This document shows positions 9,449 to 61,594 of a stretch of DNA of 64,000 bases, piece by piece. Origin of the DNA: Alphaproteobacteria bacterium GWF2_58_20 (GTDB lineage: Bacteria; Pseudomonadota; Alphaproteobacteria; UBA1247); NCBI GenBank assembly GCA_001768735.1, contig MEMB01000007.1:23612-87611 (forward strand). The letters run 5' to 3'. The notes beneath the pieces were generated by a model. The model searched no databases, was not told where the DNA came from, and was given only the letters and a program-made list of their open reading frames with translations. Position numbers and translations under genes: made by a program. The stretch's first letter is position 1; every line of letters starts with the position of its first letter.

Positions 9449-9455
9449 GGGGACC

Positions 9456-29092: not shown

Positions 29093-30106
29093 TCAGGGCG
29101 TGTCCAAGTGGCTCGCTTCATCCGGCGTTGGTGGGTTGTTCAGGGCGCAGCGGCAACCCGCGCTTGTTACGGCATAATCGGCTGTGAAGGCGAAAATGCC
29201 GCGGGAGGCACTAATGCCGCGGGTGATGTAGGCATAAAAACCTGCTGCAGTGCATGTTGACCGTTGATAGAAATTGCCAGCATTGTTGGCAGTTGTATAG
29301 CTGCTGGAAGGTTTGCAATCTGTCGTGGAGGGAGTGAAGGGAACTGCGGATGTTTCCTTTGTGGTGGCTACTGTATTGGAATAGCAGCGGCAATTGTATC
29401 CGGTGTAATAGGTGGAATCAGCCACACATCCTGTGCTGGCGTTGTTGATGCCGACCCGGATCTGTCCGGTGCCCGTAGCTCCGGTACGGCCATCGTCGGC
29501 GTAAGTCCATTCGCCCCGACCGCCAGCGATATCCCAGAGGACTTCGCCGGTGGAAGTCACCATGGTGCGGCGGTTGAACTGGTCATAGCCTGGTGTGGGT
29601 GCATTGTGGTAGCCATTGACGTCATTAGTCGAGGAAGCTTCCGCGGTGGACAGGCCATAGAAGAGCTTTCCTGAGCCAACGGCACCTCCGCTCCAGTTGG
29701 CGGGCTGATCCACAATATCCTGGGTGATGCGGTTCCATTGGCTTTCCTTGATCATGTCATAGCCGGGACCGATGGCCTGGCAGGCGCTGCGGCAGCTGGC
29801 CCAGCTATAAGTGTCCGAAAGCTGGCCGGCGGCAGGTGTGGCAGGGGAGGTGCCGGACATTTCATATTTTGAGACGGCAAAGGCGGGCACGGTAAAGCCA
29901 CTGACGTTGCTTTCCGGCAGATACACCCACTCGGAGTGGGTGGGGGTGGTGACTGTCAGGGTGTAAGCCTGTTCAGCGGATTGTCCCAGCTGGTTGGAGA
30001 CCCGCAGGCGGACGGGAAAGGTTTCCTGCGCAAGGGCGGGCAAAGCCGCCATGGCGATGCAGAAGGTGCTCGCAGCGAGAACGCTGGAACGAAGCCGATG
30101 GGACAT
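29093..30106 (-). CDS. secreted FGE/SUMF1-like (C-type-lectin fold) domain protein
   Basis: Signal peptide AASTFCIAMAALPALAQE. FGE-like motifs (FAVSKYEMS ... SWASCRSACQAIGPGYDMIKESQWNRI ... GRGEWTYAD). Confidence 0.55.
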   Translation of the reverse strand: MSHRLRSSVLAASTFCIAMAALPALAQETFPVRLRVSNQLGQSAEQAYTLTVTTPTHSEWVYLPESNVSGFTVPAFAVSKYEMSGTSPATPAAGQLSDTYSWASCRSACQAIGPGYDMIKESQWNRITQDIVDQPANWSGGAVGSGKLFYGLSTAEASSTNDVNGYHNAPTPGYDQFNRRTMVTSTGEVLWDIAGGRGEWTYADDGRTGATGTGQIRVGINNASTGCVADSTYYTGYNCRCYSNTVATTKETSAVPFTPSTTDCKPSSSYTTANNAGNFYQRSTCTAAGFYAYITRGISASRGIFAFTADYAVTSAGCRCALNNPPTPDEASHLDTP

Positions 30107-30121
30107 GGGACAATCTCCTGT

Positions 30122-31522
30122 TTATTCGACCGTGATGGTGAAAATTTGTGTGGCAGTGGCACCGGATGCGTCGTGGATCGTCAGGACAACCGAATGGCTT
30201 CCGGCCGGGGCATTGTTGCCGGAAAGGGTTCCCGTGCGCAGCCAGTTGCCGTTGTAGGTAAAGGAAAGCCATGCGGGCAGGGTGGTGGCTTCCATGACCA
30301 CAACGTCCACGGTGTTGTCGTCCTCGGCGCTGGCCGTATAGTTGAAATCGCTGCCAATGGCAACGGTGCTGGATGGCGCGGAGCTGGTGAAAGTGGGCGC
30401 GGTATTGGCCTCGGGCGGGGTGGGGGGAACACCGGCGATGACCAGCTTTCCAGCCTCGTTGAAATCATGCGCGAAGCTTTGCTGGATACCCAGCCATTCC
30501 GGCGCTTCAACGAGGTTGGCCATGAGGAGGATGTCGGCGTGGCCGGCATTGGCCGTGAAATCATATGTGTATATTCTGCCATGCTGTGCGGCGGTGGGCG
30601 CGGATGTTGTGATGGTGGGGGCATCCGTTCCGACAAAATTGCGTTGGGGGATTCCCGAAATTACGAAGTTCCCGGATTCATTGAAATCACTTCCGAATGT
30701 CTGCTGGATATGGAGCCATTCCGGTGCTTGTACCAGTGTCGGGAACAACATGGCGGAGGTGCTGCCAGCATCGGCCGTAAAATCATAGTTGTATGGCATG
30801 CCTTCCTGTGCAGCGATGGGCGCGGATGTTGTGATGGTGGGAGGGGAGAGGGTGAAGGGCACAGATGGGTAGGAGCCGGAGAGCTGTGCCGTCCAGTCGC
30901 CGTTGTCGATGAAGGTGAGCCATGGAGGGAAATCGAGCGCTTCAAGGGCCAGGATGGCAGCTGGGTTTCCGGAATAGGCTTCAACCAGATATCCATAGGG
31001 AAATCCGGTATAGGCCACGGTTTGCGGTGTGGAGGCAAACATGATTCCGTCTTCCGCCAGTGTGGAGACCAGCCATGTTGCGGTAGTGCCGTCGCCAAGG
31101 TGGAAAAGGATGGTGAAGCTTGTGCCTCGCGTGTCGGGGCTGGTGGCTGTCAGCATGACTACGGATGATTCCGTAATATCCACCGGAGCATCCCCTGCTG
31201 CGTACAGTGTGCCATCCAGAAGGAAGGTGGCGGTGGCTTCGGCAGGGGCTTCAAGCCAGGCTGTGGTCGGTGCGGCAAGGCCGGTCAGATAGGTGTTTTC
31301 AGAGGAGACAATGCTGGAAGGAGTGGGAGATATGGCCGGTGGGAAGACAAGCGCGAATCCTTCATCCTGTGTGTTCCCGGCACTTTGTGGGCAAACAGAA
31401 TCCGTATTGTAATCACAGATCTTTTTGCGGATGCGATAGCGCAGGGATGCGGCTTCTGATGGTGTGGATAATGCTGCGGAGAGCAGAATGATTATCAGCA
31501 CGGCCTTGAGTGAAGATTTCAT
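30122..31522 (-). CDS. secreted protein with three tandem Ig-like (putative Ig / cadherin-like) repeats
   Basis: Signal peptide. Three ~75-aa repeats (PTITTSAP.AAQ.G..Y.YDF.A ... APEWL.IQQ.F...FNE.G..VI.G.P). Confidence 0.55.
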   Translation of the reverse strand: MKSSLKAVLIIILLSAALSTPSEAASLRYRIRKKICDYNTDSVCPQSAGNTQDEGFALVFPPAISPTPSSIVSSENTYLTGLAAPTTAWLEAPAEATATFLLDGTLYAAGDAPVDITESSVVMLTATSPDTRGTSFTILFHLGDGTTATWLVSTLAEDGIMFASTPQTVAYTGFPYGYLVEAYSGNPAAILALEALDFPPWLTFIDNGDWTAQLSGSYPSVPFTLSPPTITTSAPIAAQEGMPYNYDFTADAGSTSAMLFPTLVQAPEWLHIQQTFGSDFNESGNFVISGIPQRNFVGTDAPTITTSAPTAAQHGRIYTYDFTANAGHADILLMANLVEAPEWLGIQQSFAHDFNEAGKLVIAGVPPTPPEANTAPTFTSSAPSSTVAIGSDFNYTASAEDDNTVDVVVMEATTLPAWLSFTYNGNWLRTGTLSGNNAPAGSHSVVLTIHDASGATATQIFTITVE

Positions 31523-31623
31523 GCAACTCCTCCCATCTGTGATGGAAATCATAGGAGGTTTCCAAGAAAATCACAAGCGATGAAAAACATGGCGGAAATG
31601 ATCACGCAAGAAAAAAGGGAGCC

Positions 31624-34116
31624 TCAGGTCTCATCCTTCTTTTCGCGGGCTTTTTTGGTTTTGTCGGCAGGCTCTTCGCGGCCGGAGAGTTCCGATGACA
31701 TCATGTCGGCCAGAGCCTGGAGTTGGGCCTCGATTTCCGGGGCAAGTCCGGCGTCTTCTGCCGGACGTGATGTGGACGGTTTTTCCGACGGTTCTGTTGT
31801 TTCCTGCGCGGCAAAAAAGTCTTCAGGTGCAGGGGTTTCTTCCGAAGGCGCGGGCTGTGCGTTTTCCTTTGGCGCAGGCGCGTCTCCGGTTTCCGTTTCG
31901 TCCTCTCCGGTTTCCTCGTCCGTATCCGCATCATCCATGGAGGCGCCCAGCAGTTCGGCCCAGTTCAGGGGACCGCCTTCCAAAACGGGTTTCGGTTCAT
32001 CCTTCATGGCCGCCCCCATGATGTCGGCCCAGCTCAGGCTGCCCGCCGGGGTTTCCGCGGCAAGGTTGGCGCTGGCTTCCGCCAGGGCGTCTTCAATCCC
32101 CGGCTTTTCGGTGCCGGCATGTTCTTCCGCCTTTTTGTGGATCATGTGGCTGACCGATGCCACCGAAAGGGCACCACATGTCAGGGCACCTTCTCCGGCC
32201 TTCTGTCCCGCCTGGAAGCCTGAAATCAGGGTTTCGATGATCTCGTTTTCCGGGGTTTCCGGGCCTGATGCCGCCACACTCCAGCGGGGGTTGTGCATGT
32301 TGCGGTCAAGCTGGTCAATGGTTGGCGAACTCGGCTGGACGCGGACATCATTGGGAGAAATGCGCAGGTAGTGCTGGACACGCAGGGCCTTCACCTTCTT
32401 GGGATCGGAATAGAAGATGTTGGCAGCCCATGAAGAGCCGTTGAACAGCAGGATGATCTCGCCCTGCTTGAGTTTTTTGAGGTCGCTGTAACCAAAGGCC
32501 GTGATGCTGCTGACCGAAGTGGCTTCATCCTTCAGGTTGTAACCGCCAAAGGTGCCATCGCTGAAGGCGTAACTCTTGGTTTCTGCGATCTTGATGTTGT
32601 TGACGGACTTTTCAAAAAATTCGCGGGTGGAGCGCGGATCCTCGATCTTGCCGAAAATCTTGAGGTTGCAGTTGGCGGCGATGGAATAGGCTTCTTCCTT
32701 GATGCGCTTTTCCATGGCGGCCATGTCCTGCGCGGCGAAAATGAGCGAGAAGCCAAGGCTTCGCGCCTGCGCCGCCATGACGCCCATGCCGGAGACGGTA
32801 TAGTAACCGACTTCGTCAAACACGGTCATGAACGGGGTGGAGGCGTTGGTGGGCTTGTTCTCGATGACCGATCCCCACTGGCCTTCCACCGAATTTCCGA
32901 GGGTGGATCCCATCATGCCCTTGAGCGAAGCGACAGCAATCTTGCCAAGGTTGGCGGCCTCGTCGCCCGATTTTTCCAGCGCCGGGATGAGGACGACCAG
33001 GAGGCGGCGGTTGAGCACCACGTCGGTCATGTCGATGTCGGCGAGCTGGATGTTGAAGATGTAGCCGTAGTCATCCGCCAGCGATCCCAGCGAGCGGGTG
33101 AACTGCATGGACAGGTAGCCATGCTGCTGGCTGGGCGTGGACATGTCCATCATGGGTTCGCCCGGGCCGGCCGGCTTCTGGTTGCCTTCGTCGTCATAGG
33201 CCTCGTCCACATAGCCCGGCAGGGTGTCGAGATAGCCGTGCAAGGCGCGGCGAAGGCGCTCCGGCAGTTCCTGATCACGCGAGAGCTTGATGATGGCAGG
33301 CAGGGACAGGTGGTCGCGCACCACGCCCACATCCAGCAAAACGCCCTGGTTGTCACGTTTCCAGGTGAGGGCGGGCATCATGGCGCCCATGAGGGCCACG
33401 GCGCGCTCTTTCCACATGGCGTTGTCGCCCTGCACTTCCGGCATCAGGCTGACCATCATGTTGGTGAGGTAGGAAGCGGAGCCCGAGGAAAACGGGTTCA
33501 TGGTGTTGGACATGGCCGGCATGTCGCTGTTCGCGGTCATGTAATTGAGGACCAGAAGGTCGTCGTCACGGCCAAAGCGGCGGGCCAGGGCGTAGAGGGA
33601 AGCCCACAGGTTGGTATCGGCCTTGCCGTCGATGTAGATGAATCCGCTGCCCCAGGTCATGGCGTTGGTGACAAGGGATTTGAGGCCTTCGGTTTTGCCG
33701 GCGCCAGTGGTGCCGAAGAAGAGGATGTGCGTGCGGGCATCGCTGTTGGAAACCCACATTTCCGTCTTGTCATCGCTTTCATTGCCGAGGAAGAGGATGC
33801 CATCAGGCTTCTTTTTGTCGGCGTTCTTGCGTTTCATGAAAGACGGCATCTTGAGGGGGATGCCGAATTTCTGTTTCATGATCCAGCGGAAATAGAGCAG
33901 GCCGATGAAAAACAGGACATCGGCGATGCGGGCCATAACATCAAGATCCTGCAGCAGGCTGGTGCCAAGGAGCAGGCCGCCGGTGGCGCCAAGGGCGACC
34001 GTGGCGTTCTGGGGCTGGGCGATGGACTGGAAGAATTTTGTTGTTGATGAACGGGTGTCGCGCATGAGCGCGTTGCCCTTGACATGATATTTCTTCTCAA
34101 CGCCTGGCATGGTCAA
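31624..34116 (-). CDS. type IV coupling protein family ATPase, DotL/IcmO(TrbC)-like with acidic C-terminal tail
   Basis: Two N-terminal TM helices, Walker A FFGTTGAGKT, Walker B VFDEVG, ~830 aa with a Glu/Asp-rich C-terminal extension. 4-bp overlap with the upstream DotM-like gene. Confidence 0.55.
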   Translation of the reverse strand: MTMPGVEKKYHVKGNALMRDTRSSTTKFFQSIAQPQNATVALGATGGLLLGTSLLQDLDVMARIADVLFFIGLLYFRWIMKQKFGIPLKMPSFMKRKNADKKKPDGILFLGNESDDKTEMWVSNSDARTHILFFGTTGAGKTEGLKSLVTNAMTWGSGFIYIDGKADTNLWASLYALARRFGRDDDLLVLNYMTANSDMPAMSNTMNPFSSGSASYLTNMMVSLMPEVQGDNAMWKERAVALMGAMMPALTWKRDNQGVLLDVGVVRDHLSLPAIIKLSRDQELPERLRRALHGYLDTLPGYVDEAYDDEGNQKPAGPGEPMMDMSTPSQQHGYLSMQFTRSLGSLADDYGYIFNIQLADIDMTDVVLNRRLLVVLIPALEKSGDEAANLGKIAVASLKGMMGSTLGNSVEGQWGSVIENKPTNASTPFMTVFDEVGYYTVSGMGVMAAQARSLGFSLIFAAQDMAAMEKRIKEEAYSIAANCNLKIFGKIEDPRSTREFFEKSVNNIKIAETKSYAFSDGTFGGYNLKDEATSVSSITAFGYSDLKKLKQGEIILLFNGSSWAANIFYSDPKKVKALRVQHYLRISPNDVRVQPSSPTIDQLDRNMHNPRWSVAASGPETPENEIIETLISGFQAGQKAGEGALTCGALSVASVSHMIHKKAEEHAGTEKPGIEDALAEASANLAAETPAGSLSWADIMGAAMKDEPKPVLEGGPLNWAELLGASMDDADTDEETGEDETETGDAPAPKENAQPAPSEETPAPEDFFAAQETTEPSEKPSTSRPAEDAGLAPEIEAQLQALADMMSSELSGREEPADKTKKAREKKDET

Positions 34117-35246
34117 GCCCTCCCGGCTGCAGCCAGAGGCGGCAGTTTGATTTCAGGGTCTTTCATGTAGCCCTGCATGGCGATGATGGCCGCATCGAGT
34201 TTTGGATTTGGCAGGGGGCGGCCGGATTTCTGCTCCGCCATGAAGTGGGTGACGGAAGCGGCTGCTTCGGCATGGAAGGAATGGCGACCGAGGTTGTTGA
34301 GCGGATACCAGAGTGGACGGGCAACGGCCCGCAGCCAGAGGAACTGGGCAGGCGCGAGGACGCCGCCATTGGATCGGGCCCATTCCAGCACGGCCATCAT
34401 GGCTGTGGTGAGGTAAGCATGGGTGGCGGCAATCTTGAGGGCCTTGCCACCCACTTCCGGATCCTTGAGGATTTTGGTGATGCGGCGGCGCAGGTTGCCA
34501 GGAACGGAAAGTCCTTTTTCCGGCGACCAGCAGGCGGAGATTTCACCCAGCAGGTCATCACTTTCCTGACGTTTGCAAATGCCCTTGAGCGCGAATGCGG
34601 CCAGCAGGCACTGGGCATAAAGCGGCATGCGTTCCGGGCCGCGCCAGCGGGGGCCAATATCGCGCAGCATGGCCGTGCGCATGGCATCGGGATCAGGTGT
34701 GTTGCCCATCATGGGGATATGGTTGAAAACCAGCCATTCTTCCGGGGAAAGGGCTTCCGCGAAGGGGGGGAGGACATCCGGCACCGGGGAGCCTGGCGAA
34801 CGGGCGTTCTTGTCGCCGGGATTGAACTTGAGGATGGGGGTGATGATCGGGAAGGCATCGGCCTGCTGGGAAATGAAGCTTTCAATGCCATACTGGCGGC
34901 GCAGCAGGTTTCCGGGCGCGCGGAAGGTTGCCATGACAGCCATGCCGATCAGGGCGAGGCCGATGGGCCAGCGCAAGACATTGCCGACGATGAGCGAGGC
35001 TTGGCCCAAAATGGTGGTGGTGAGGGCGCGGGAGGGGATGGTGGACAAGGTATCGGCCATCTCGGCGTATTTTGGCGAGAAAAACCCCAGCATCGACAGC
35101 TCGCCGACCTTGAGCCAGCGCAGGGCATTGAGGATTTGTTCATGGCCAGTGAGCCAGATGGCCCATGAACCACCGACAATGACAATGAACAGGAGAACGA
35201 TGATCATGATGGTATCATCGCCTTTTTTGCCGGATGAGGGCGCCAC
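34113..35246 (-). CDS. DotM/IcmP-like inner-membrane partner of the coupling protein (inferred)
   Basis: ~377 aa with N-terminal TM helices and a large cytoplasmic domain. Position and size match the dotM-dotL (icmP-icmO) pair of type IVB systems. No diagnostic motif verified. Confidence 0.35.
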   Translation of the reverse strand: MAPSSGKKGDDTIMIIVLLFIVIVGGSWAIWLTGHEQILNALRWLKVGELSMLGFFSPKYAEMADTLSTIPSRALTTTILGQASLIVGNVLRWPIGLALIGMAVMATFRAPGNLLRRQYGIESFISQQADAFPIITPILKFNPGDKNARSPGSPVPDVLPPFAEALSPEEWLVFNHIPMMGNTPDPDAMRTAMLRDIGPRWRGPERMPLYAQCLLAAFALKGICKRQESDDLLGEISACWSPEKGLSVPGNLRRRITKILKDPEVGGKALKIAATHAYLTTAMMAVLEWARSNGGVLAPAQFLWLRAVARPLWYPLNNLGRHSFHAEAAASVTHFMAEQKSGRPLPNPKLDAAIIAMQGYMKDPEIKLPPLAAAGRA

Positions 35247-35413: not shown

Positions 35414-35489
<76 letters not shown>

Positions 35490-35573: not shown

Positions 35574-37271
35574 TTGCGCATGTCCGTTTTTGTTTGCCGC
35601 CGTAGCGGGGGAGTTTTCTGGGGTGTGCTGTTTTTGTCATGCCTTGCCATTCTTTCCTTGTCCGGATGCTCCGGGGTTCATGATCCTGAACTTGGCCTGA
35701 ACCGGGACGCCTATCGCAACATGACCGATCCTGTGCCGGATGCGTTCAAGACATCCCGCAAGGAAGCGCCTCCCATTCCGGATTTGTCCCCAACGATTGC
35801 CCGCCCGGCGATGCCGTTGCTGACGCCAAACCGCACGGTCAGCCTTTCCGTGACAAGCGCATTGTCCCTCAAGGATGTCATGTTTGAGCTTGCCCGCCAG
35901 GCGGAAGTGGATATTGAAATTGACCCGCGGATTGCCGGGGGGGTGGATTTTTCCGCCCACAACCGGCCTTTCCTGGATGTGATTGATCGCCTGTGTGACC
36001 TTGCCGGCCTGCGTTTCCGTATCCGCAACAATGTGGTCCGGGTGGAAATTGACGATCCCTATGTTTTCAATTATGAAGTTCCTTACCTGTCCATCATCCG
36101 CCAGACCCGCAGCAATATTGGTGTTTCCACGGATGTTGTGACGCCTGGCAGCAGCGCGGGGAGCGGGGATACCCGTTCAACGGCAAGCATCAGCGGAGAA
36201 TCGGATTCCAATTTCTTTGGGGAACTGGAAACCGGTCTCAAGGCCCTTCTGGCCAACACCACTCCGGCCGGCCTTTCTGCAACGCGTCCGGCAGACCAGC
36301 CAGCGGTTGTCCTGCACAAGCAGACAGGTATCATTTCGGTTTTCGGAACCCTCAAACAGCATCAGGCCGTGGCGGAATATCTCAAGCCACTGGTGGAAGC
36401 CTCCATGGCGCAGGTGCAGATTGATGCCCGGATCATCGAGGTCAATCTGGATGACCGTTACAAGAGCGGTGTTGACTGGACTTTTGTCATGCAGCAGGGG
36501 ACCATTTATACGCTGGGGTCAACCCTGACCAACTTCAATGACCCGAGTCCGCTCAACAACACATTTCAGGCGACGATTGACGGTTCGGATGTGGATCTGC
36601 TGGTCAACCTGATCCAGAAGTTTGGCACCACGCGCACCCTGTCCAGTCCGCGCGCCACGGTTCTCAACAACCAGTCCGCCATTCTCAAGGTTGCCCGGAA
36701 TTATGTGTATTTTGATGTGCAGGTGGATCGTGAAACCACGACGGATACCACGACCAGCAACAACCTGCCCCTGCTGACCGTCAGCAGTGACATCCGCACC
36801 ATTCCAATTGGTCTTGTCATGGCGGTCCAGCCTTCGGTGGATATGCGCACCAATGAAATTGTCCTCACGGTGCGTCCCACGGTGACAGAACTGGATTCAA
36901 CCGTCTCGGATCCGGCCGTGCAGTATATCAACAGCACGCTTGATCCCAATGCGGTGCGTGTGGAATCCCAGATCCCGGTCGTGCGCGTGCGGGAAATTGA
37001 CAGTGTGCTGCGCCTCCAGTCCGGAGAGGTTGCCGTTCTGGGCGGCCTGATGCAGGACAAGAGTGTCCTGGATGACGAGGGGCTGCCCGGTCTGGGAGAA
37101 ACCCCGGTTCTGGGCGATCTGGTCACCAAGCGTGAAAAGCTGCGGGATACCACGGAAATGGTGGTGTTGCTCAGGGCCCAGGTCCTGAAGAACGCATCTT
37201 CTGGAGTGACCGATGCCGACCGCCACCTTTACAAGACATTTGTCCGCGATCCGCGTCCGTTCAACTTTTAA
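35574..37271 (+). CDS. type IV pilus lipoprotein secretin (MshL/PilN-type)
   Basis: Lipobox LSLSGCSG. Secretin C-domain (VLRLQSGEVAVLGGLMQD ... GLPGLGETPVLGDLV ... TEMVVLLRAQVL). Confidence 0.8.
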   Translation: MRMSVFVCRRSGGVFWGVLFLSCLAILSLSGCSGVHDPELGLNRDAYRNMTDPVPDAFKTSRKEAPPIPDLSPTIARPAMPLLTPNRTVSLSVTSALSLKDVMFELARQAEVDIEIDPRIAGGVDFSAHNRPFLDVIDRLCDLAGLRFRIRNNVVRVEIDDPYVFNYEVPYLSIIRQTRSNIGVSTDVVTPGSSAGSGDTRSTASISGESDSNFFGELETGLKALLANTTPAGLSATRPADQPAVVLHKQTGIISVFGTLKQHQAVAEYLKPLVEASMAQVQIDARIIEVNLDDRYKSGVDWTFVMQQGTIYTLGSTLTNFNDPSPLNNTFQATIDGSDVDLLVNLIQKFGTTRTLSSPRATVLNNQSAILKVARNYVYFDVQVDRETTTDTTTSNNLPLLTVSSDIRTIPIGLVMAVQPSVDMRTNEIVLTVRPTVTELDSTVSDPAVQYINSTLDPNAVRVESQIPVVRVREIDSVLRLQSGEVAVLGGLMQDKSVLDDEGLPGLGETPVLGDLVTKREKLRDTTEMVVLLRAQVLKNASSGVTDADRHLYKTFVRDPRPFNF

Positions 37272-37286
37272 AGAGAAGGGGCGGAG

Positions 37287-38051
37287 ATGCTGCCGACACT
37301 GCGCTATCTCTTCCTGACGGCACGTCGTGACCGGTTGTTTCTGGCCATGATGGCGGCTTTTGGCCTTGTTGCCCTGCTGGGGAGCTTTATTGGCGACCAG
37401 TCCGTGATTGAGGGGCGGGAAGCGACAGCGGCGTTTGTCGCATTTTCCGGGCGCATGGTGCTGGTTTTCGGCATGGTGCTTTTTGTGGCAACCCATATTC
37501 GTCGCGCCTTTGAAAGCCGCGAAATCCTCATGATCCTGTCCCGGCCGGTGTCCCGCCATGGGTTTGTGCTGTCCTGCTGGGCAAGCTTTTCCATCATTGC
37601 CATCCTCCTCCTGGCTGTCTTTGGGGGGCTTCTTTATGTTGTTGCCCATCCGCCAGCGATGGGGCTTGTGTTGTTCATGGCCGGAATGCTGCTGGAAACC
37701 ACCCTGATGATCGGTGTGGCCCTGTTTTTCTCCCTGGGCATGGAAAGCGTGGTTGGGGTTGTGTTCTCCAGCTTTGGTTTTTATATGCTGGCCCGCATGA
37801 TGGGGGTTCTGGTTGCCATCGCCAATTCCGAATTCCGTGGGGTTGAATTGCCCATGGCGCTGGCGCTGGACCAGGTTGCCAACCTGATGTCCTTCATTTT
37901 TCCAAGGCTGGACCAGTTTGGCCAGTCGTCATGGCTGGTGTATGGCCGTGGACTTGACCTGTCTCTTGCGGGCATGGCCCTGCAGGTTGGGCTTTATACT
38001 GCCCTGGTGCTTGCTGCCGCGATTTTTGATTTCCGGCGCAAGCGGTTTTGA
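37287..38051 (+). CDS. ABC-2-type transporter permease-like membrane protein
   Basis: Six predicted TM helices, 254 aa. Immediately downstream of the secretin gene, with a 4-bp overlap to the next gene. Confidence 0.45.
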   Translation: MLPTLRYLFLTARRDRLFLAMMAAFGLVALLGSFIGDQSVIEGREATAAFVAFSGRMVLVFGMVLFVATHIRRAFESREILMILSRPVSRHGFVLSCWASFSIIAILLLAVFGGLLYVVAHPPAMGLVLFMAGMLLETTLMIGVALFFSLGMESVVGVVFSSFGFYMLARMMGVLVAIANSEFRGVELPMALALDQVANLMSFIFPRLDQFGQSSWLVYGRGLDLSLAGMALQVGLYTALVLAAAIFDFRRKRF

Positions 38052-38746
38052 TGGTTTTTCGCATGCGGTCATCGGGGAATGTTGTGTTGGGCTTCCTGCT
38101 GGTGGCCCTGACTGTGGCGCAAGGGGGGCTTGGATACCTGCTGCGCAAGGTTCCGCCCCATTACCACACGTTGTCTGCGCCTCCGGGGCATCAGGCCTTC
38201 GTGGCGCAAACCCTTGGAGATCCACAGTTCGGTTTTCGCATGGCCGGCTTGCGCCTTCAGCATGAGGGAAACCTGGATGGACGGATTTTGCCGTACAAGT
38301 CCATGGACTACAAGAGACTGGCGGACTGGTTTTCCTTGCTGGACAGGATGGATGCCACTTCCAGCGTGACGCCAACCATGGCGGCGTTCCTGTTTGTTTC
38401 ATCACAAACTCCGGAAGACACCCGTTACCTTGTGGATTACCTTGAACGGCATGCCATGCGCGATCCCCAGCACAAATGGCGCTGGCTGGCCCAGGCTGTG
38501 CATATTGCCTGGTATCGTCTTGGGGATCGGGACCGTTCCCTTGGCCTGGCGAAGGAACTGGCCGATCTTCCAGTGTCCGACCTGCCTTACTGGGCGCGCC
38601 AGATGCAGGTGTTTATCCTGATGGATTTGGGGGAAAAGCCGTCCGCGCGGGCCATTCTGGAAAAAATTGCCGAAACAGACCATAACCTGCCGGAAAATGA
38701 ACGGTTGTGGATGCAGCGGTTCATCCAGCGCCATCTTTCAGATTGA
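38048..38746 (+). CDS. membrane-anchored hypothetical protein
   Basis: N-terminal TM helix (VVLGFLLVALTVAQGGLGYLL) and a soluble domain with no motif recognised. Confidence 0.4.
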   Translation: MMVFRMRSSGNVVLGFLLVALTVAQGGLGYLLRKVPPHYHTLSAPPGHQAFVAQTLGDPQFGFRMAGLRLQHEGNLDGRILPYKSMDYKRLADWFSLLDRMDATSSVTPTMAAFLFVSSQTPEDTRYLVDYLERHAMRDPQHKWRWLAQAVHIAWYRLGDRDRSLGLAKELADLPVSDLPYWARQMQVFILMDLGEKPSARAILEKIAETDHNLPENERLWMQRFIQRHLSD

Positions 38747-38750
38747 GGGA

Positions 38751-39854
38751 ATGATGGAAGGGCTGCTCAATCTTGCAAACGGCCTTCAGGTCGCCGGACT
38801 TCTGGAAGGGTTGGTCCTGCTGGCTTTTATCCTGCGGCGCATTTGTGACCGGCGTCTCCTGGTTTTCCCTGTGGCGTATGTTGTTGCGGTTTCGGCGGGG
38901 TTCCTCATGCCGCTGTCGCAGCGTATCGACATGCAGGTGCCGGAAGCCGTCCTGATTGTCCTGAATGCCACCCTGTCGGGGTTCGGGTACCTTTTCATTC
39001 TCCAGCTTCTGGATGGACAGCCGCCGCGTCGCCTGCACCTGCTCGTGCTGATTCCGGCCTTGCTGGTTGTTCCTGGGGCGCTGGTAACTGCGGCCTCAAA
39101 GGGGCAGATGATGTGCTGGGGCGATGTCTGCATCATCCCGGCCGATTTTCTTCGGGTTTATGATGTCCTTGCAGGGGGGATGCTGCTTTTGGCCCTGCTG
39201 CTGGTTGCCGGGCGTCGTCTGGAAGCGCTGGTGGGGCGTCCCATGGGGCGTGAAAAACAGGCCTTGGTTTTGGCCATTGCCATGATGCAGGCCGCCCTGC
39301 TGGGGTTGGGGCTCGTTTTCCTTTCCGGCAGGATCGACCGGGCTGAAGCCGAAGTGGTGGATGCCATCTTGCGCCTGACCTTCCTTTATCTTCTGGCGTC
39401 TTCGGTGTTTCGCGTGTTCCAGTCGGCGTTTGACTTGCCGGAGCTTTCGGGGAACGAAAACCAGGAACATGCGCCGGGCCTGTCGGATGAGGATCTCAAG
39501 GTCATGGATGCCATCAGGGCGCTGATGACCATGGACAAGCTTTATCAGGAACAGGGGTTCAGCCGTGCGGACCTTGCCCGTGAACTCGCCCTTCCCGAAT
39601 ACCAGGTGAGCCGGATCATCAATGCCGGATTTGGGCAGACTTTTTCCGAAATGGTAAACGGGTATCGCCTGGACGAAGCGCGCCAGCTCCTGAAGGAAAC
39701 GGAGCAGCCTGTTGGCAGCATCGCTTTTGATGTCGGGTTTAATAGTCTGGCCTCCTTTAACCGGGTTTTCAAGGTGGGCACAGGCCAAAGCCCCACAGCC
39801 TTCCGGCAGGGCATCAAAATGGAATCGAAAATGGAGACCCCGGGTAAGTCTTGA
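38751..39854 (+). CDS. membrane-embedded AraC-family transcriptional regulator (about 7 TM helices plus C-terminal AraC HTH)
   Basis: Seven hydrophobic helices, then the AraC HTH (FSRADLARELALPEYQVSRIINAGFGQTFSEMVNGYRLDEARQLL ... SIAFDVGFNSLASFNRVFK). Confidence 0.7.
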   Translation: MMEGLLNLANGLQVAGLLEGLVLLAFILRRICDRRLLVFPVAYVVAVSAGFLMPLSQRIDMQVPEAVLIVLNATLSGFGYLFILQLLDGQPPRRLHLLVLIPALLVVPGALVTAASKGQMMCWGDVCIIPADFLRVYDVLAGGMLLLALLLVAGRRLEALVGRPMGREKQALVLAIAMMQAALLGLGLVFLSGRIDRAEAEVVDAILRLTFLYLLASSVFRVFQSAFDLPELSGNENQEHAPGLSDEDLKVMDAIRALMTMDKLYQEQGFSRADLARELALPEYQVSRIINAGFGQTFSEMVNGYRLDEARQLLKETEQPVGSIAFDVGFNSLASFNRVFKVGTGQSPTAFRQGIKMESKMETPGKS

Positions 39855-39966
39855 AAAGCGTTGGTTGCAAGAGATTTTGGGATATCCTCAGGCCGTGGTT
39901 TTCCGGTAGCCTTGCGGGTATGGCGAGGGGTGTCGCGGGAAAGAGCGCAGGGAAGGGAAGAAGGAC

Positions 39967-40755
39967 ATGAATCCGTTGAATTTGGCTTGGGGCGCGGCCT
40001 TTGCCCTTTTAGGTATGGTTTTTGGGAGTTTTTCCAGCCTTCTGTCCTATCGTCTTCCGCGCGATCTGCCGGTGGGCATGACCCGCTCGGCCTGTCCCTC
40101 CTGTCATCATGTCCTTGCCGCCCGCGATCTTGTCCCTTTGCTGGGATATGTTTTCCAGCATGGGCATTGCCGCTGGTGCCAGAAGGCGATTTCGCGCCGC
40201 TATCCCCTGATGGAACTGACCTGTGCGCTTCTTTTTGTCGTGGCATTCATGGCGTTCGGGGCGTCCTTGTCCGGGGTGCTTTTTGCGGGGCTGTCTTTTG
40301 CCCTTCTGGTGGTTGTGGTCAGTGACCTTGAAACCTATATCATTCCGGATACCATGGTGATTCTGGTTGGTGTGCTGGGGATCCTGTGGCGCTGGAAAGT
40401 TGTTCCAGGCTTTGGGGATGCGTTTCTCGGGGCTTTGTTGGGGGGAGGGTTGACCCTTGGGTTGCGTGCCTTGTTCCTGCTGCTGCGCCGCAAGCAGGGG
40501 TTGGGGCTCGGAGATGTGAAATTTATTGCGGTAGCCGGGATCTGGCTGGGATTTGAAGCCCTTCCATGGCTTCTGGTTCTGGGCGGGAGTTTCGGCGTGG
40601 TGTTTGGCATGGCATGGCAGGCGCGCAACAGGCTGTGCAGAAAGAAGCGGACATCCCGTCGCAAGCTGCCATCTTATTTCCCGTTTGGCCCCGCCCTTGC
40701 TTTTGCGCTTTATCTTCTGGTCCTGATCCAGCAACGCGGTTATCCATGGTTTTGA
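39967..40755 (+). CDS. pilD: prepilin peptidase (A24 family, PilD type with N-terminal zinc-binding CxxC pairs)
   Basis: CPSCHHVL ... CRWCQKAIS. Polytopic, with the catalytic Asp region (VVVSDLETYIIPD) and GLGDVKF. Confidence 0.85.
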   Translation: MNPLNLAWGAAFALLGMVFGSFSSLLSYRLPRDLPVGMTRSACPSCHHVLAARDLVPLLGYVFQHGHCRWCQKAISRRYPLMELTCALLFVVAFMAFGASLSGVLFAGLSFALLVVVVSDLETYIIPDTMVILVGVLGILWRWKVVPGFGDAFLGALLGGGLTLGLRALFLLLRRKQGLGLGDVKFIAVAGIWLGFEALPWLLVLGGSFGVVFGMAWQARNRLCRKKRTSRRKLPSYFPFGPALAFALYLLVLIQQRGYPWF

Positions 40756-40988
40756 AATCCTTTTTCCACACCGTGTGGCAAGGTTTTTTTTGAGGGAACT
40801 TTCCAAGGGAAACCGGTGCAGCCTGCATTCCTCATCTTGTAAAATGACGGATTTGGCACGCATTTTCCCAAGACAGCCCCGTTTTTTTGCGATATGATGC
40901 GGCCAGATTAGGTTTTGTGCGCAAGCGTGCGCATGGCGTTTGTGGGTATGCGGGGCCTTTCTCCGCAGAACATTTTGAGGAGAGTAAC

Positions 40989-41699
40989 ATGACGACAAAT
41001 GGCAAGCAGACACAGGCTGGTTTCAGTCTTGTCGAACTGGCAATCGTGCTGATCATCATCGGTCTGATTGTTGGTGGCGTTCTGAAGGGGCAGGACCTTG
41101 TGGAAAGCGCCCGCGTGAATTCCATCCAGACACAGCTGAACGAAGTTCGTGTCGCATCTTCGACCTTCCTGAACAAGTATGATGATCTGCCGGGCGACAT
41201 CAGCGCTGCGGATGCGGTGCTTGTGCAGGCGGGCCTCAGCAGCACGGGTGACGGCAATGGCCGCGTTGGTGGCACGGGCGTCAATCGTCTTGGCTCCACG
41301 GCAACGGAACCCACCTGGTTCTGGCAGCATCTGCGCGCCGCCGGTCTTCTTGGCGGCATTGCCACGGAATCTACGGGCGTTCTTCCGGCGTCTTCCGGCT
41401 TGCAGAGCCGCGTGGGTGGTCTTTACACCATCAATTATGAAACCATCAATGGAATCAGCAGCCACTGGATCCGTCTTGGAACCACAACGGGTGCGGCGCC
41501 GACCGACAACAATGTTGCGGTTCTCTCGCCCAACCAGCTGCGCAGCGTCGACACCAAGGGTGATGATGGCCTGCCGAACACCGGCAAGGTGGGTGGCGCA
41601 GGTTCAGGTACCGCTTGCGCGACAGGCGTGACCTCCACCAGCACCTACCAGACCACCAATCCGGATACGGTTGCCTGCTGGGGTCACTTCCAGCTCTAA
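40989..41699 (+). CDS. type IV pilin (probable major pilin), short leader
   Basis: MTTNGKQTQAG|FSLVELAIVLIIIGLIVGG class-III signal with Glu5. C-terminal Cys pair. Followed by a strong terminator. Confidence 0.8.
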   Translation: MTTNGKQTQAGFSLVELAIVLIIIGLIVGGVLKGQDLVESARVNSIQTQLNEVRVASSTFLNKYDDLPGDISAADAVLVQAGLSSTGDGNGRVGGTGVNRLGSTATEPTWFWQHLRAAGLLGGIATESTGVLPASSGLQSRVGGLYTINYETINGISSHWIRLGTTTGAAPTDNNVAVLSPNQLRSVDTKGDDGLPNTGKVGGAGSGTACATGVTSTSTYQTTNPDTVACWGHFQL

Positions 41700-41732
41700 T
41701 CGTTCTGTTTCCTGAACAACAGGAATGGGAAA

Positions 41733-41768
41733 GGGCCCTGCAAATGCAGGGCCCTTTCTTGTTTTTTT
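41733..41768 (+). terminator. rho-independent terminator after the pilin gene
   Basis: AAGGGCCCTGCAAATGCAGGGCCCTT hairpin, then TCTTGTTTTTTT. Confidence 0.7.
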
Positions 41769-41903
41769 CGGGAATCCTTGCAAGGATAAGGAATCTTCCT
41801 GCCGGATGTTTTGGGTTCCCCCTTTTCAAGGGCAGACATTCAGGGTAGAGTAAAAATGTGATATTGTGCGAAACTTGTGAATGGTTTGTAATGGGGGGAT
41901 GAC

Positions 41904-44300: not shown

Positions 44301-45184
44301 GGATACGTAAACGCAAGGATGCAGGGTTTTCGCTGGTTGAACTGGCGGTGGTGCTCATTATTGTCGGTATCCTGACCGGTATGGGCATTACCAGCCTTTA
44401 TGCCTATATGGAACGGGAAAGCCGGGCCACCACCTTTGTGCGTCTGGATGCTGTTGAACAGGCCTTGTACCTTTATGCGGCCCGCAACAAGCGCCTGCCC
44501 TGTCCGGCAGATGGATCGCTTGCGGAAACCAATGCCAGTGCGGGGATTGAACAGCGCAGCGGCAATGTCTGCACCTCCGGTCTCCAGTACAGCACGGTTC
44601 CGTGGCGGGATCTGGGTCTTGCGCAAGGCGCCAGCTATGACGGCTGGAACCGCAAACTGACCTACCGGGTGTTTTATGATGCCACGGGAACGCCTGCGGG
44701 CCAGCGCGGGCTTGTGCGGCCGGGCGGAATGGACATGTCGCAGTGTGTTGCCAGTGCGGCCGACGATGGTGGGGCCATCACGGATTGTGCATCTGATGGC
44801 AGTACAGCCCCCATTGAGTTCCTGCGCAACAAGGGGTTGACCATACGCACCAATGTTGCACCGGCCGGTTCGGTCATTCGTTCGTCATCCACACCGGAAT
44901 ATGGTGGGGGGGCGGCTTTTGTCCTTGTCAGTCACGGGAAAAACGGCACTGGGGGGTATATCAAGTCGGGTGCCAATCCGGGACGGTCGGAATCCCCGCC
45001 GCTGAGTTCCCTGTCAGGGTATGTGATGGAGCTTGAAAATCTCGATTTTACAACGGATGACATTTACATTGATAGCCGCATGAGTGATGCACAAAATGCC
45101 GTGCCGGCGAATTTTTTCGATGACATCATCCGTGCCCCCAGCATTCACTGGGCGTCCGACAAAGCCAATTTGGGGCCGCAATAA
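44297..45184 (+). CDS. minor type IV pilin
   Basis: RKRKDAG|FSLVELAVVLIIVGIL prepilin signal. Paralogous to the previous gene (KRLPCPADG, VPWRDLGL). ATGA overlap. Confidence 0.75.
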   Translation: MRIRKRKDAGFSLVELAVVLIIVGILTGMGITSLYAYMERESRATTFVRLDAVEQALYLYAARNKRLPCPADGSLAETNASAGIEQRSGNVCTSGLQYSTVPWRDLGLAQGASYDGWNRKLTYRVFYDATGTPAGQRGLVRPGGMDMSQCVASAADDGGAITDCASDGSTAPIEFLRNKGLTIRTNVAPAGSVIRSSSTPEYGGGAAFVLVSHGKNGTGGYIKSGANPGRSESPPLSSLSGYVMELENLDFTTDDIYIDSRMSDAQNAVPANFFDDIIRAPSIHWASDKANLGPQ

Positions 45185-45513
45185 TGAAATGTCTTCTTGC
45201 CATGGTGCTGACGCTCCTGGTTCTGGAATCTGCCCCGGCCGTGGCCCTGGATGCGGGCATGGTCTGGGATGTGGCGCATCGCTGCTTTCGTCAGAAAGAT
45301 GGCGATGGCTCAAGCTGTGGTCTGACATGGCATGTGGATGTGCGGAACTATAGCGGGGACGAGGTAAAAATCACGCCACCGGAAACCGCCAAGGATATAG
45401 GGGCGCGTCTGGATGCCCAGATGGCAACCGAACAGAAACAGGTTGAAACGTTGCAGAAAAATGAAAATGTGGAGAAGGTCCGGGTATTGTTTACCGACGA
45501 AAAAATGCCATGA
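45184..45513 (+). CDS. small secreted protein
   Basis: Signal peptide LLAMVLTLLVLESAPAVALD. 109 aa. Confidence 0.4.
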   Translation: MKCLLAMVLTLLVLESAPAVALDAGMVWDVAHRCFRQKDGDGSSCGLTWHVDVRNYSGDEVKITPPETAKDIGARLDAQMATEQKQVETLQKNENVEKVRVLFTDEKMP

Positions 45514-45606
45514 GGCGGGATGGGGTTTCGAAGAAAAACAAGAGTGGATTTTTTTACGAATTTGCTTTAGATTTCAAAAGTTGAGCCATGATGGGATTGG
45601 AGACTC

Positions 45607-47826: not shown

Positions 47827-47859
47827 CGGGGAATTTCCCCTTGCTCTGGAGGTAAACCC

Positions 47860-51270: not shown

Positions 51271-51830
51271 GGGGTGGGAGCCCCTGCTGTCGTTGTGTCT
51301 GCGGCGGCGCGGGCATCACCATCCACGATGGCGTCCTGATCGGGCAGGAAAGTCTGCCGGGGCCGCAGGACAAAATGATAGATGCCACGGTACATCACGG
51401 GCTTCCAGATCAGTTCCACGCCATGGCGGTTGATGGATACGATTTCAAATTCCCCAATGGGATGGCCGCTGCGCAGACGGGTGTCATTAAGCCAAAGGCT
51501 CCAGGTTTCCGGGCCTTCATAAGACATCCCGGCCAGGAAAAGGGGCGGAGGGAGCTGAAGCTCGCCTGGAGCCAGCGGTTTTCCCTCTTCCGACATCGAT
51601 CCTGCGGGTTCAGTGTAGAGATCCGGGCTCAGGGCATGGTTGATGGCCTGGCGTTCCTGTTCCGTGAACATGAAGTGAAGTCCGGCAAGGGGAACAACCT
51701 GCGGGAAAACGATTTCACTGTTGCCATGCCGCTGCGCATTTTCCATCAGCTGCTCATCAAGGGTTTGCTGGGCGAAAGCGGAACTTGTGGCCAGCAGGGC
51801 TGCCATGGGCAGGAGGAATTTCCGTGTCAT
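51267..51830 (-). CDS. PilP/MshK-like periplasmic pilus assembly protein
   Basis: Signal peptide, 187 aa. Sits between the PilO-like gene and the ABC ATPase, with 4-bp overlaps. Confidence 0.45.
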   Translation of the reverse strand: MTRKFLLPMAALLATSSAFAQQTLDEQLMENAQRHGNSEIVFPQVVPLAGLHFMFTEQERQAINHALSPDLYTEPAGSMSEEGKPLAPGELQLPPPLFLAGMSYEGPETWSLWLNDTRLRSGHPIGEFEIVSINRHGVELIWKPVMYRGIYHFVLRPRQTFLPDQDAIVDGDARAAADTTTAGAPTP

Positions 51831-54153: not shown

Positions 54154-54163
54154 GAAGATCCAC

Positions 54164-55372: not shown

Positions 55373-55374
55373 TG

Positions 55375-57337: not shown

Positions 57338-61594
<4,257 letters not shown>

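What the first reader, a model, noticed from the sequence alone, without database searches (positions are those of the whole stretch)
31624..35246. Orphan DotM/DotL-like (type IVB) coupling-protein pair adjacent to tRNA-Thr with no other T4SS genes in sight
An 830-aa T4CP-family ATPase (2 TM helices, Walker A FFGTTGAGKT, Walker B VFDEVG, long Glu/Asp-rich C-terminal tail like DotL/IcmO) is preceded, with a 4-bp overlap, by a 377-aa inner-membrane protein. That protein has the size, topology and gene order of DotM/IcmP. In Legionella/Coxiella and IncI plasmids this pair is embedded in a full T4BSS. Here the neighbours are instead an Ig-repeat surface protein, an FGE-like protein, gyrB and a type IV pilus locus. 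A chromosomal stand-alone DotLM-like module suggests either a remnant of an integrated element or a repurposed substrate-recruitment ATPase.
Basis: partly seen in the sequence, partly recalled or inferred. Interest (0 to 1): 0.65.

Follow-up and report, generated by a model that had tools for sequence, protein, structure and literature searches.

The report
DotM/DotL coupling genes, scattered secretion system
The two genes really are the DotM/DotL "coupling" proteins of a Legionella-type (type IVB) secretion system. Standing apart from the other secretion genes, next to tRNA-Thr and gyrB, is the ordinary inherited arrangement in Micavibrio-like Alphaproteobacteria, not an orphan or a relic of a mobile element.

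Summary
ORF 34113-35246(-) is a full-length DotM/IcmP homologue. ORF 31624-34110(-) is a DotL/IcmO-type coupling ATPase, E=9e-131 to Legionella IcmO, with intact Walker A and B motifs and an acidic tail. No other type IV secretion gene is recognisable in the 64-kb window.

The interpretation as a remnant or a repurposed stand-alone module is not supported. The genome is the MAG 'Alphaproteobacteria bacterium GWF2_58_20', and NCBI already names the ATPase IcmO. At least 577 species with Micavibrio-like record titles carry a chromosomal icmL-(K)-E-G-C/D-J-B-like operon. In 50 of 68 evaluable species that operon has no DotM/DotL within reach.

In a complete 2.46-Mb chromosome (CP066681.1) the order is tRNA-Thr(UGU)-DotM-x-DotL-...-gyrB-recF-dnaN-dnaA. 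That is the backbone seen in this window, and it lies about 265 kb from IcmB. A second Micavibrio contig and two closer relatives share the arrangement.

The pair is under purifying selection (dN/dS 0.11-0.24). Its composition is normal and there is no att-like repeat of the tRNA.

The best reading is therefore the substrate-recruiting module of a dispersed chromosomal T4BSS. I could not search the rest of this genome, so a true orphan remains possible (about 10%). Ordinary; low interest.

The parts
34113..35246 (-). dotM/icmP homologue, 377 aa, GTG start. N-terminal membrane segments plus a C-terminal cytoplasmic DotM_C domain.
   Evidence: Pfam DotM_C scores 148.8 bits against a cut-off of 27. 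NCBIfam DotM_IcmP_IVB scores 164 bits, below its equivalog cut-off of 230. The full-length match to L. pneumophila IcmP (6sz9_B) has E=2.8e-26. dN/dS is 0.14 against L012 and 0.24 against L095.
31624..34110 (-). dotL/icmO homologue, the type IV coupling ATPase. It is 828 aa from ATG 34110; the longest ORF starts at TTG 34116.
   Evidence: Residues 1-587 align to residues 2-593 of L. pneumophila IcmO/DotL (6sz9_A), E=8.9e-131. Pfam hits are TrwB_AAD_bind and TraG-D_C; NCBIfam TrbC_conju scores 372 bits, below its cut-off of 800. NCBI names it IcmO. dN/dS is 0.19 for the full length and 0.11 for the core.
34118..34124 (-). Shine-Dalgarno-like GGGAGGG inside the 3' end of dotM, with 7 nt between it and the dotL ATG. 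This suggests translational coupling.
   Evidence: Read directly from the sequence.
33691..33714 (-). Walker A motif GTTGAGKT, DotL residues 133-140.
   Evidence: The surrounding block is 82% identical to clade homologues.
32812..32823 (-). Walker B motif VFDE, DotL residues 430-433.
31627..32349 (-). DotL C-terminal extension, residues 588-828. It is acidic and poorly conserved, and contains an internal repeat SLSWADIMGAAM / PLNWAELLGASM. It is the presumed adaptor- or substrate-docking tail.
   Evidence: It is not alignable to the Legionella DotL tail and is at most 25% identical to clade homologues. It is still constrained: dN/dS is 0.26 against L095.
35414..35489 (+). tRNA-Thr(UGU), a conserved divergent neighbour of dotM. 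It is a backbone marker, not an attachment site for the pair.
   Evidence: ARAGORN. The same tRNA sits upstream of dotM in L012, L095, L096 and L097. No second copy of its 3' end occurs in the window.
29093..31552 (-). Two Sec-signal-bearing genes, He_PIG/Ig-like (476 aa) and a 337-aa protein, lying between dotL and gyrB. They are a lineage-specific insertion and not part of the coupling module.
   Evidence: Both have signal peptides. Both genes are absent in L095, where dotL is followed by a terminator hairpin and then gyrB.

Best explanation
The pair encodes the inner-membrane coupling (substrate-recruitment) module of a chromosomal Dot/Icm-type type IVB secretion system. The other genes of that system lie elsewhere in the genome, as is usual in this Micavibrio-like alphaproteobacterial clade.

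Inferred mechanism, by homology with Legionella:
- DotL forms the membrane-anchored ATPase ring.
- DotM sits beside it in the membrane and offers a cytoplasmic docking surface.
- DotL's acidic C-terminal tail binds adaptor proteins and substrates.
- ATP hydrolysis feeds substrates to a DotO/IcmB-powered channel built from DotI, DotH, DotG and DotF.

What is shown and what is inferred:
- Shown: the identity of the two proteins, intact ATPase motifs, purifying selection, the ancient conserved position beside tRNA-Thr and gyrB, and a physically separate core operon in relatives.
- Inferred: that this genome also carries that core operon, and that the substrates are proteins, possibly delivered to prey or host cells.
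For: Identity:
- DotL is homologous to Legionella IcmO over its whole ATPase and all-alpha region (E=9e-131), and DotM to Legionella IcmP over its full length.
- Pfam DotM_C scores above its gathering threshold.

Clade context:
- Hundreds of homologues occur in Micavibrio, Alphaproteobacteria and 'Bdellovibrionales' MAGs, at 40-46% identity for DotM and 53-58% for DotL.
- Relatives have DotN and IcmB.
- At least 577 GTDB species carry this IcmB.
- The conserved operon is IcmL/DotI (189 bits, cut-off 175) - 397 aa - DotG/TraO-like - DotF-like - 2 x ~157 aa - DotN - IcmB.

Scattering is normal:
- 50 of 68 evaluable species have no DotM/DotL near IcmB.
- In CP066681.1, DotL lies at about 555 kb and IcmB at about 290 kb.
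- DotL and IcmB share a contig but are more than 10 kb apart in three more genomes. This is inferred from matching contig lengths.

Synteny: tRNA-Thr(UGU)-DotM-(x)-DotL-...-gyrB-recF-dnaN is found in L096, L097, L095 and L012 as in the window.

Functionality:
- dN/dS is 0.11-0.24, similar to gyrB at 0.13.
- The core is 65-89% identical to clade homologues.
- A Shine-Dalgarno sequence couples the two genes.

Not mobile: GC is ordinary, there is no att repeat, and no integrase or relaxase label appears in the window.
Against: - The decisive check, finding IcmB/DotO, DotB, DotC/D/G/H/I and the rest in this same genome, could not be made. Its IcmB was not among the 120 best protein hits or the 80 best genome loci, but both lists were capped by score.
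- This lineage's DotM and DotL are somewhat more divergent than typical within the clade: 42% against 51%, and 53% against 57%, median identity.
- It has lost the ~170-190-aa gene that separates dotM and dotL in the relatives examined. Either point could signal changed constraints.
- NCBIfam equivalog cut-offs are not reached.
- No substrate or adaptor (IcmS/IcmW/LvgA-like) was identified.
Confidence: 0.77

Rival explanations
1. True orphan. This lineage lost the T4BSS channel genes but kept DotM/DotL, which now serve another machine, for example the adjacent MSHA-like pilus/secretin, or another membrane process.
For: - No T4BSS core gene lies within 64 kb.
- The MshL-like secretin operon is the divergent neighbour across tRNA-Thr, here and in the 88% relative.
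- The lineage lacks the gene between dotM and dotL and is more divergent than its clade.
- Purifying selection shows that the pair still does something.
Against: - The same isolated position occurs in genomes that do have the core operon elsewhere.
- The secretin adjacency is not conserved. CP066681.1 has an integrase island there and L097 has amino-acid metabolism genes.
- The pilus genes are a self-sufficient T4aP set with their own ATPases.
- To my knowledge no coupling protein is known to work without a T4SS channel.
Confidence: 0.1
2. Remnant of an integrative conjugative element or IncI-like element that integrated at tRNA-Thr, now decaying.
For: It is adjacent to a tRNA gene. The best NCBIfam hit of the ATPase is the IncI-type TrbC model.
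Against: - There is no att-like repeat, and no integrase or relaxase label.
- GC content is like that of the flanks.
- The arrangement is conserved from 88% down to 40% DotM identity, next to the dnaA-dnaN-recF-gyrB region.
- dN/dS of 0.11-0.24 with intact motifs is incompatible with decay.
Confidence: 0.03
3. The pair is the coupling protein set of a chromosomal conjugative (DNA-transfer) MPF-I system rather than an effector-translocating Dot/Icm system.
For: TrbC_conju (IncI) is the top NCBIfam model for the ATPase. The clade's DotG is short and also matches TraO, and other genes weakly match TraP and TraQ.
Against: - The clade has DotN/IcmJ, and its IcmL/DotI scores above the Dot/Icm-specific cut-off.
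- DotG scores higher on the IcmE model than on the TraO model.
- The genes are scattered in fixed backbone positions in hundreds of species, unlike a mobile element.
- Needham et al. 2022 classed Micavibrionales systems as pT4SSi, which they identified by the absence of a relaxase (PMC9418006).
- I did not screen for relaxases myself.
Confidence: 0.08

Closest known systems
Legionella pneumophila type IV coupling complex, DotL (IcmO) and DotM (IcmP), PDB 6SZ9/7OVB
   Same: - Same gene order, dotM then dotL, tightly coupled.
- DotL is alignable over residues 1-587 (E=9e-131), including the N-terminal membrane region, Walker A and B motifs and the all-alpha domain.
- DotM is alignable over its full length (E=3e-26).

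   Different: - Here the pair is not embedded in the icmTSRQPO-NMLKEGCDJB region (gene order from my own knowledge) but sits alone beside tRNA-Thr and gyrB.
- The DotL C-terminal extension, which in Legionella binds DotN and IcmS/IcmW/LvgA (my own knowledge), is not alignable.
- NCBIfam equivalog cut-offs are not reached.
DotM-x-DotL modules of Micavibrio-like MAGs, for example CP066681.1 (QQG36698.1) and Micavibrio sp. (MFA5593352.1)
   Same: - Same family: DotL 53-58% and DotM 40-46% identical.
- Same chromosomal address: tRNA-Thr(UGU) upstream, gyrB-recF-dnaN downstream.
- Same separation from the IcmB operon.

   Different: - Those modules carry a 166-188-aa gene between dotM and dotL, and a ~230-240-aa gene after dotL. 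This lineage lacks both.
- Here two signal-peptide Ig-like genes are inserted before gyrB instead.
IncI1 (R64-type) conjugative TrbC coupling protein, with TrbA as the DotM counterpart
   Same: TrbC_conju is the best NCBIfam model for the ATPase: E=4e-111 over residues 96-588.
   Different: - The score of 372 bits is far below the 800-bit cut-off.
- There is no plasmid or ICE context, relaxase or thin-pilus (PilN-type) genes.
- The neighbouring pilus is MSHA-like T4aP.
VirD4/TrwB/TraD coupling proteins of type IVA systems
   Same: Shared P-loop T4CP fold family. Hits are TrwB_AAD_bind, TraG-D_C and SXT_TraD.
   Different: The similarity is much weaker. The T4SS-DNA_transf (PF02534) match is below threshold at 15 bits. 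These proteins have no DotM partner.

Membership tests
Type IV coupling protein (T4CP) superfamily | P-loop NTPase domain with Walker A and Walker B motifs, plus an all-alpha / TraG-D_C region | tested here: met
   GTTGAGKT lies at residues 133-140 and VFDE at 430-433. Pfam TrwB_AAD_bind scores 37.1 bits (cut-off 20.5) and TraG-D_C 32.1 bits (cut-off 22).
Type IV coupling protein (T4CP) superfamily | N-terminal transmembrane anchor | tested here: met
   A hydropathy scan finds one strong segment at 56-74, preceded by a weaker hydrophobic stretch at about 37-55. This region aligns to the Legionella DotL N-terminus. No dedicated topology predictor was available.
DotL/IcmO (T4BSS coupling ATPase) | Sequence homology to IcmO across the whole N-terminal, nucleotide-binding and all-alpha regions | tested here: met
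   phmmer against PDB 6sz9_A gives E=8.9e-131, query residues 1-587 to chain residues 2-593. It was the only PDB sequence matched.
DotL/IcmO (T4BSS coupling ATPase) | C-terminal extension that binds DotN and IcmS/IcmW/LvgA-type adaptors | tested here: inconclusive
   A 240-residue extension exists and is acidic. It does not align to the Legionella tail and is at most 25% identical to clade homologues. It is under constraint, with dN/dS 0.26. Binding partners were not identified.
DotM/IcmP | DotM C-terminal cytoplasmic domain preceded by membrane helices | tested here: met
   Pfam PF23127 scores 148.8 bits against a cut-off of 27. The full-length alignment to 6sz9_B has E=2.8e-26. Hydrophobic segments lie at 12-30 and 86-104.
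DotM/IcmP | NCBIfam equivalog NF033890 (DotM_IcmP_IVB) trusted cut-off | tested here: not met
   The score is 164 bits against a cut-off of 230. This is a divergent member rather than a Legionella/Coxiella-type equivalog.
IncI1 TrbC (NF041447 equivalog) | Score above the curated cut-off | tested here: not met
   The score is 372.5 bits against a cut-off of 800.
Dot/Icm type IVB secretion system (system level) | Adjacent dotM-dotL gene pair in that order | tested here: met
Dot/Icm type IVB secretion system (system level) | Presence in the same genome of the channel and energising components: IcmB/DotO, DotB, DotC, DotD, DotF, DotG, DotH, DotI, DotA | not testable with these tools
   None is present in the 64-kb window. 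The rest of this genome could not be reached, and the capped searches did not list it. In relatives, IcmL, DotG, DotF-like, DotN and IcmB are present at another locus.
Integrative element at a tRNA gene | Direct repeat of the tRNA 3' end (att), an integrase, and a compositional difference from the flanks | tested here: not met
   There is no second copy of the 22- or 32-nt 3' end with up to 3 mismatches. No integrase label appears in the window. GC is 0.56-0.61, within the window's range.

The most novel reading that the evidence does not exclude
This lineage (the window, the 88% relative and the 78% relative) may really have lost the T4BSS channel while keeping a selected DotM/DotL pair. The pair has shed the clade's intervening gene and diverged faster. 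It would then be a coupling ATPase working without a type IV channel, perhaps feeding the neighbouring MSHA-like secretin/pilus machine.

A milder but broader reading is that the Dot/Icm system pervasive in Micavibrio-like epibiotic predators is their prey-injection device. Its coupling genes would be anchored next to the replication origin.
Probability: 0.1. Interest if true: 0.7.

Novelty: new member of a known kind. Interest (0 to 1): 0.25.

Why it matters
For this window it matters little. It is a correctly recognisable DotL/DotM pair, already labelled IcmO by NCBI, in the position that is normal for its clade.

The wider context is worth a note. A Dot/Icm-type system appears to be a backbone feature of hundreds of Micavibrio-like species. 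The papers searched mention it only in passing. If the system serves epibiotic predation, the coupling pair described here would be its substrate gate.

Tried and rejected
1. Looked for T4BSS genes hidden in the adjacent 'pilus' locus. Rejected: the secretin is MshL-like, the 370-aa ATPase is PilT (451 bits, against 166 for DotB), and MshE- and GspF-like proteins are present.
2. Checked whether the unannotated cluster at 4295-10802, which includes an OmpA-like lipoprotein, could be DotK/DotH/DotG-like. There are no NCBIfam T4BSS hits and no tblastn hits from the clade's core proteins.
3. Tried to find this genome's IcmB.
   - The third homologue search listed only the 120 best hits. The one 'Rhodospirillaceae bacterium' UBA hit, P0361, belongs to a different MAG, GCA_003486725.1.
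   - Both results are inconclusive, not negative.
4. L055 and L095 share the contig length of 5429 bp, which suggested a single contig. They are different records.
5. Looked for att repeats of the tRNA-Thr 3' end. There are none.
6. Ran a promoter/terminator scan of 28.9-35.7 kb. The counts were close to those of shuffled sequence and not informative.
7. Tested the 'FGE-like' label for the 337-aa neighbour. There is no Pfam, NCBIfam or PDB support.
8. Checked whether the cultured strain M. aeruginosavorus ARL-13 has the pair. The cluster look-up returned only MAG accessions.
9. Did not use structure prediction, because sequence homology was already decisive.


Full report
**Observation**

The two minus-strand ORFs are real.
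- ORF 34113-35246 encodes 377 aa. It has two hydrophobic segments (12-30 and 86-104) and a DotM_C domain (Pfam 148.8 bits, cut-off 27).
- The second ORF runs from TTG 34116 to 31624.
  - ATG at 34110 is the likelier start. It is preceded by GGGAGGG at 34118-34124, is the start chosen by all gene callers, and matches the N-terminus of Legionella IcmO.
  - On that start the protein is 828 aa and the two genes are 2 nt apart rather than overlapping.
- The ATPase has Walker A GTTGAGKT (133-140) and Walker B VFDE (430-433). It has a hydrophobic N-terminus and a tail in which D+E make up 23% of residues 641-828.
- tRNA-Thr(UGU) lies at 35414-35489(+), divergent from dotM.

**Identity of the two proteins**

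Against all PDB sequences the ATPase matches only L. pneumophila IcmO/DotL. The match has E=8.9e-131, residues 1-587 against 2-593.

The 377-aa protein matches L. pneumophila IcmP/DotM over its full length, E=2.8e-26.

NCBIfam gives TrbC_conju (IncI-type, 372 bits) and DotM_IcmP_IVB (164 bits). Both are well below their equivalog cut-offs, so these are divergent members.

NCBI already names the ATPase 'type IV secretion protein IcmO'. The organism is the MAG 'Alphaproteobacteria bacterium GWF2_58_20', which is the same as the UBA MAG GCA_003485165.1.

**The rest of the window**

Precomputed Pfam labels and my own Pfam/NCBIfam scans give the following map.
- dnaA, a cNMP-gated channel gene, dnaN, recF and gyrB occupy 21.3-29.0 kb.
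- Two signal-peptide proteins (337 aa with no family; 476 aa with a He_PIG Ig-like domain) occupy 29.1-31.6 kb.
- The pair and tRNA-Thr come next.
- An MSHA-like type IVa pilus gene set follows. It comprises an MshL-like secretin, prepilin peptidase, pilins, an MshM-like ATPase, a TPR protein, PilT at 451 bits, and MshE- and GspF-like proteins.
- ligA and the division genes come after that.
- Cell-wall, nrdD and an unknown caspase/OmpA/SH3 cluster lie on the left.

None of these is a T4BSS component. tblastn with the clade's T4BSS proteins hits only dotM and dotL. 'No other T4SS genes in sight' is therefore true for these 64 kb.

**Relatives**

DotM has hundreds of full-length homologues at 40-46% identity, and DotL at 53-58%. 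The MAGs are titled Micavibrio, Alphaproteobacteria, Rhodospirillales or 'Bdellovibrionales', and many homologues lie on chromosome-sized contigs.

In two such contigs the order is DotN(IcmJ)-IcmB(DotO)-DotM-~170 aa-DotL. IcmB is highly conserved in the clade, at 64-70% identity, and NCBI names it IcmB.

A scan of one genome per GTDB species found at least 577 species with this IcmB.

Clustering the neighbours in the 80 best loci, followed by NCBIfam annotation, gives a conserved operon:
- IcmL/DotI (189 bits, above its cut-off of 175)
- a 397-aa protein
- a short DotG/TraO-like protein
- a weak DotF/TraP-like protein
- two ~157-aa membrane proteins
- DotN
- IcmB
- a 178-aa protein

From my own knowledge this is the order icmL-K-E-G-C-D-J-B of Legionella region II. 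The clade therefore has a bona fide Dot/Icm-type core.

**Scattering is the rule**

Sixty-eight loci held enough sequence to evaluate. In 18 of them DotM(-x-)DotL lay within the stretch held, directly after IcmB in most. In 50 it did not, and 32 of those 50 had at least 9 kb on both sides.

In the complete chromosome CP066681.1 (2,456,734 bp) DotN-IcmB lies at about 289-292 kb. DotM-181 aa-DotL lies at about 553-558 kb.

Matching contig lengths indicate that DotL and IcmB share a contig, yet are more than 10 kb apart, in three further genomes: 966,943, 889,960 and 1,925,773 bp.

**The address is ancient**

| Locus | Relation to the window | Order found |
|---|---|---|
| L096 (CP066681.1) | DotM 40% identical | tRNA-Thr(UGU), DotM, 181 aa, DotL, 240 aa, argS, 205 aa, gyrB, recF, dnaN, dnaA |
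| L097 (Micavibrio sp. contig) | DotL 58% identical | tRNA-Thr(UGU), DotM, 186 aa, DotL, 230 aa, a transposase, argS, thiE, gyrB, recF, an acetyltransferase, dnaN |
| L095 | DotL 78% identical | tRNA-Thr, DotM, DotL, a terminator hairpin, gyrB |
| L012 | DotM 88% identical | secretin operon, tRNA-Thr, DotM, DotL |

The window has this same backbone. The pair and its tRNA neighbour are thus inherited chromosome architecture near the dnaA region.

The signs of an integration event are all absent:
- There is no second copy of the tRNA 3' end.
- No integrase is labelled in the window.
- GC content is ordinary.

In CP066681.1 an integrase-bearing island does sit on the other side of the tRNA. That is where such elements would be expected.

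**The pair is functional**

| Comparison | Gene or region | dN/dS |
|---|---|---|
| 88% relative (L012) | DotM | 0.14 |
| 88% relative (L012) | DotL N-terminus | 0.12 |
| 78% relative (L095) | DotM | 0.24 |
| 78% relative (L095) | DotL, full length | 0.19 |
| 78% relative (L095) | DotL 1-580 | 0.11 |
| 78% relative (L095) | DotL tail | 0.26 |
| 78% relative (L095) | gyrB (for comparison) | 0.13 |

Residues 100-500 of DotL are 65-89% identical to clade homologues. A decaying remnant is excluded.

**Differences from relatives**

- This lineage (the window, L012 and L095) lacks the 166-188-aa gene that separates dotM and dotL in the other relatives examined. It also lacks the ~230-240-aa gene that follows dotL in the two Micavibrio loci, L096 and L097.
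- Its DotM and DotL are a little more divergent than is typical within the clade.
- The He_PIG and 337-aa genes are an insertion specific to this species group.
- The DotL tail aligns neither to Legionella nor well to the clade. It contains an internal repeat, SLSWADIMGAAM / PLNWAELLGASM.

**Mechanism**

The mechanism is inferred by homology with the Legionella coupling complex. The structural details below are from my own knowledge of the PDB 6SZ9 work.
- A DotL ATPase ring is anchored in the inner membrane.
- It is flanked by DotM, whose cytoplasmic domain helps to recruit substrates.
- The DotL tail docks adaptors.
- Substrates are handed to the DotO/DotB-energised channel.

The apparent Shine-Dalgarno sequence inside dotM suggests coupled translation of the two subunits.

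The nature of the substrates is not shown. Cell-wall-degrading proteins (Pesticin, NlpC/P60-CHAP) encoded after dotL in one relative hint at antibacterial cargo.

**What could not be done**

I could not search the remainder of this genome. The score-ranked caps of the protein search (120 hits) and the genome scan (80 loci) did not include it. The presence of the core operon here is therefore an inference from clade behaviour and from selection on the pair. I put it at about 0.8.

The main rival is a true orphan, repurposed pair, at about 0.1. It is weakened because the same isolated address coexists with a distant core operon in relatives. It is also weakened because the secretin adjacency is not conserved.

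**Literature**

- Needham et al. 2022 list seven marine Micavibrionales with a Legionella/Coxiella-type 'pT4SSi' system (PMC9418006).
- The 2011 M. aeruginosavorus ARL-13 genome paper reported no type IV secretion system (PMC3189940).
- A 2025 review of contact-dependent predation does not connect Micavibrio with type IV secretion in the passages I retrieved.

**Verdict**

The 'orphan/remnant' interpretation is not supported. This is a new member of a known kind, located where its clade normally keeps it. Interest is low for the finding itself. The clade-wide system is noted separately.

Noticed in passing
L015-L094 (IcmB loci); L009, L010: At least 577 GTDB species titled Micavibrio, 'Bdellovibrionales', Pseudobdellovibrionaceae, Rhodospirillaceae or Alphaproteobacteria carry a conserved chromosomal icmL-(K)-E-G-C/D-J-B-like operon. 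The papers searched mention this only once (Needham 2022). The 2011 ARL-13 genome paper reported no T4SS in Micavibrio aeruginosavorus.
   Followed up: partly
L010:14407-21236: In one relative, the genes after dotL include a 686-aa Pesticin-domain protein and a 597-aa NlpC/P60+CHAP protein. These are candidate cell-wall-degrading cargo of the system.
   Followed up: no
window 31624-35246 and 40989-41699, compared with L012: Synonymous divergence of dotM/dotL (dS 0.51-0.59) and of the 236-aa pilin gene (0.61) is about half that of the other neighbouring genes (1.17-1.63) in the same genome pair. Codon bias from high expression or a recombination event could explain it. It remains unexplained.
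   Followed up: no
window ~31936-32040 (DotL residues ~691-725): There is an internal repeat in the acidic tail of DotL, SLSWADIMGAAM and PLNWAELLGASM. These are possibly paired docking motifs.
   Followed up: no
window 4295-10802 (-): A seven-gene cluster consists mostly of unannotated proteins. It contains one caspase-like gene (Peptidase_C14, EACC1-associated type, E=5e-23) and a neighbouring gene with a weak match to the same model (E=4.5e-5), an OmpA-like lipoprotein and an SH3-domain protein. No T4BSS similarity was found.
   Followed up: partly
window 29093-31552 (-); L095:3927-4120: The He_PIG/Ig-like 476-aa gene and the cysteine-rich 337-aa gene both carry signal peptides. They are inserted between dotL and gyrB here but are absent in the 78% relative, where a terminator hairpin follows dotL. 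The 337-aa protein has no family or PDB match, so 'FGE-like' is unsupported.
   Followed up: partly
L096:1-7811: In CP066681.1, an integrase plus unannotated genes and a restriction-modification methylase lie on the far side of the same tRNA-Thr. This looks like a genomic island using the tRNA that neighbours dotM.
   Followed up: no
window 35574-57877: The MSHA-like type IVa pilus genes are split into two opposed blocks: 35574-48972 on the plus strand and 51267-57877 on the minus strand. A PALP enzyme gene and an ABC ATPase gene lie between them. An AraC-type regulator and a 798-aa unannotated protein sit inside the first block.
   Followed up: no
L009:11171-11686, L010:11233-11733, L096:9433-9978, L097:9434-9994: A clade-specific 166-188-aa gene sits between dotM and dotL in the relatives examined outside this lineage. 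It has no Pfam or NCBIfam match, and a C-terminal hydrophobic segment is visible in the L029 copy. It is missing in this lineage. It may be an unrecognised coupling-complex subunit.
   Followed up: partly
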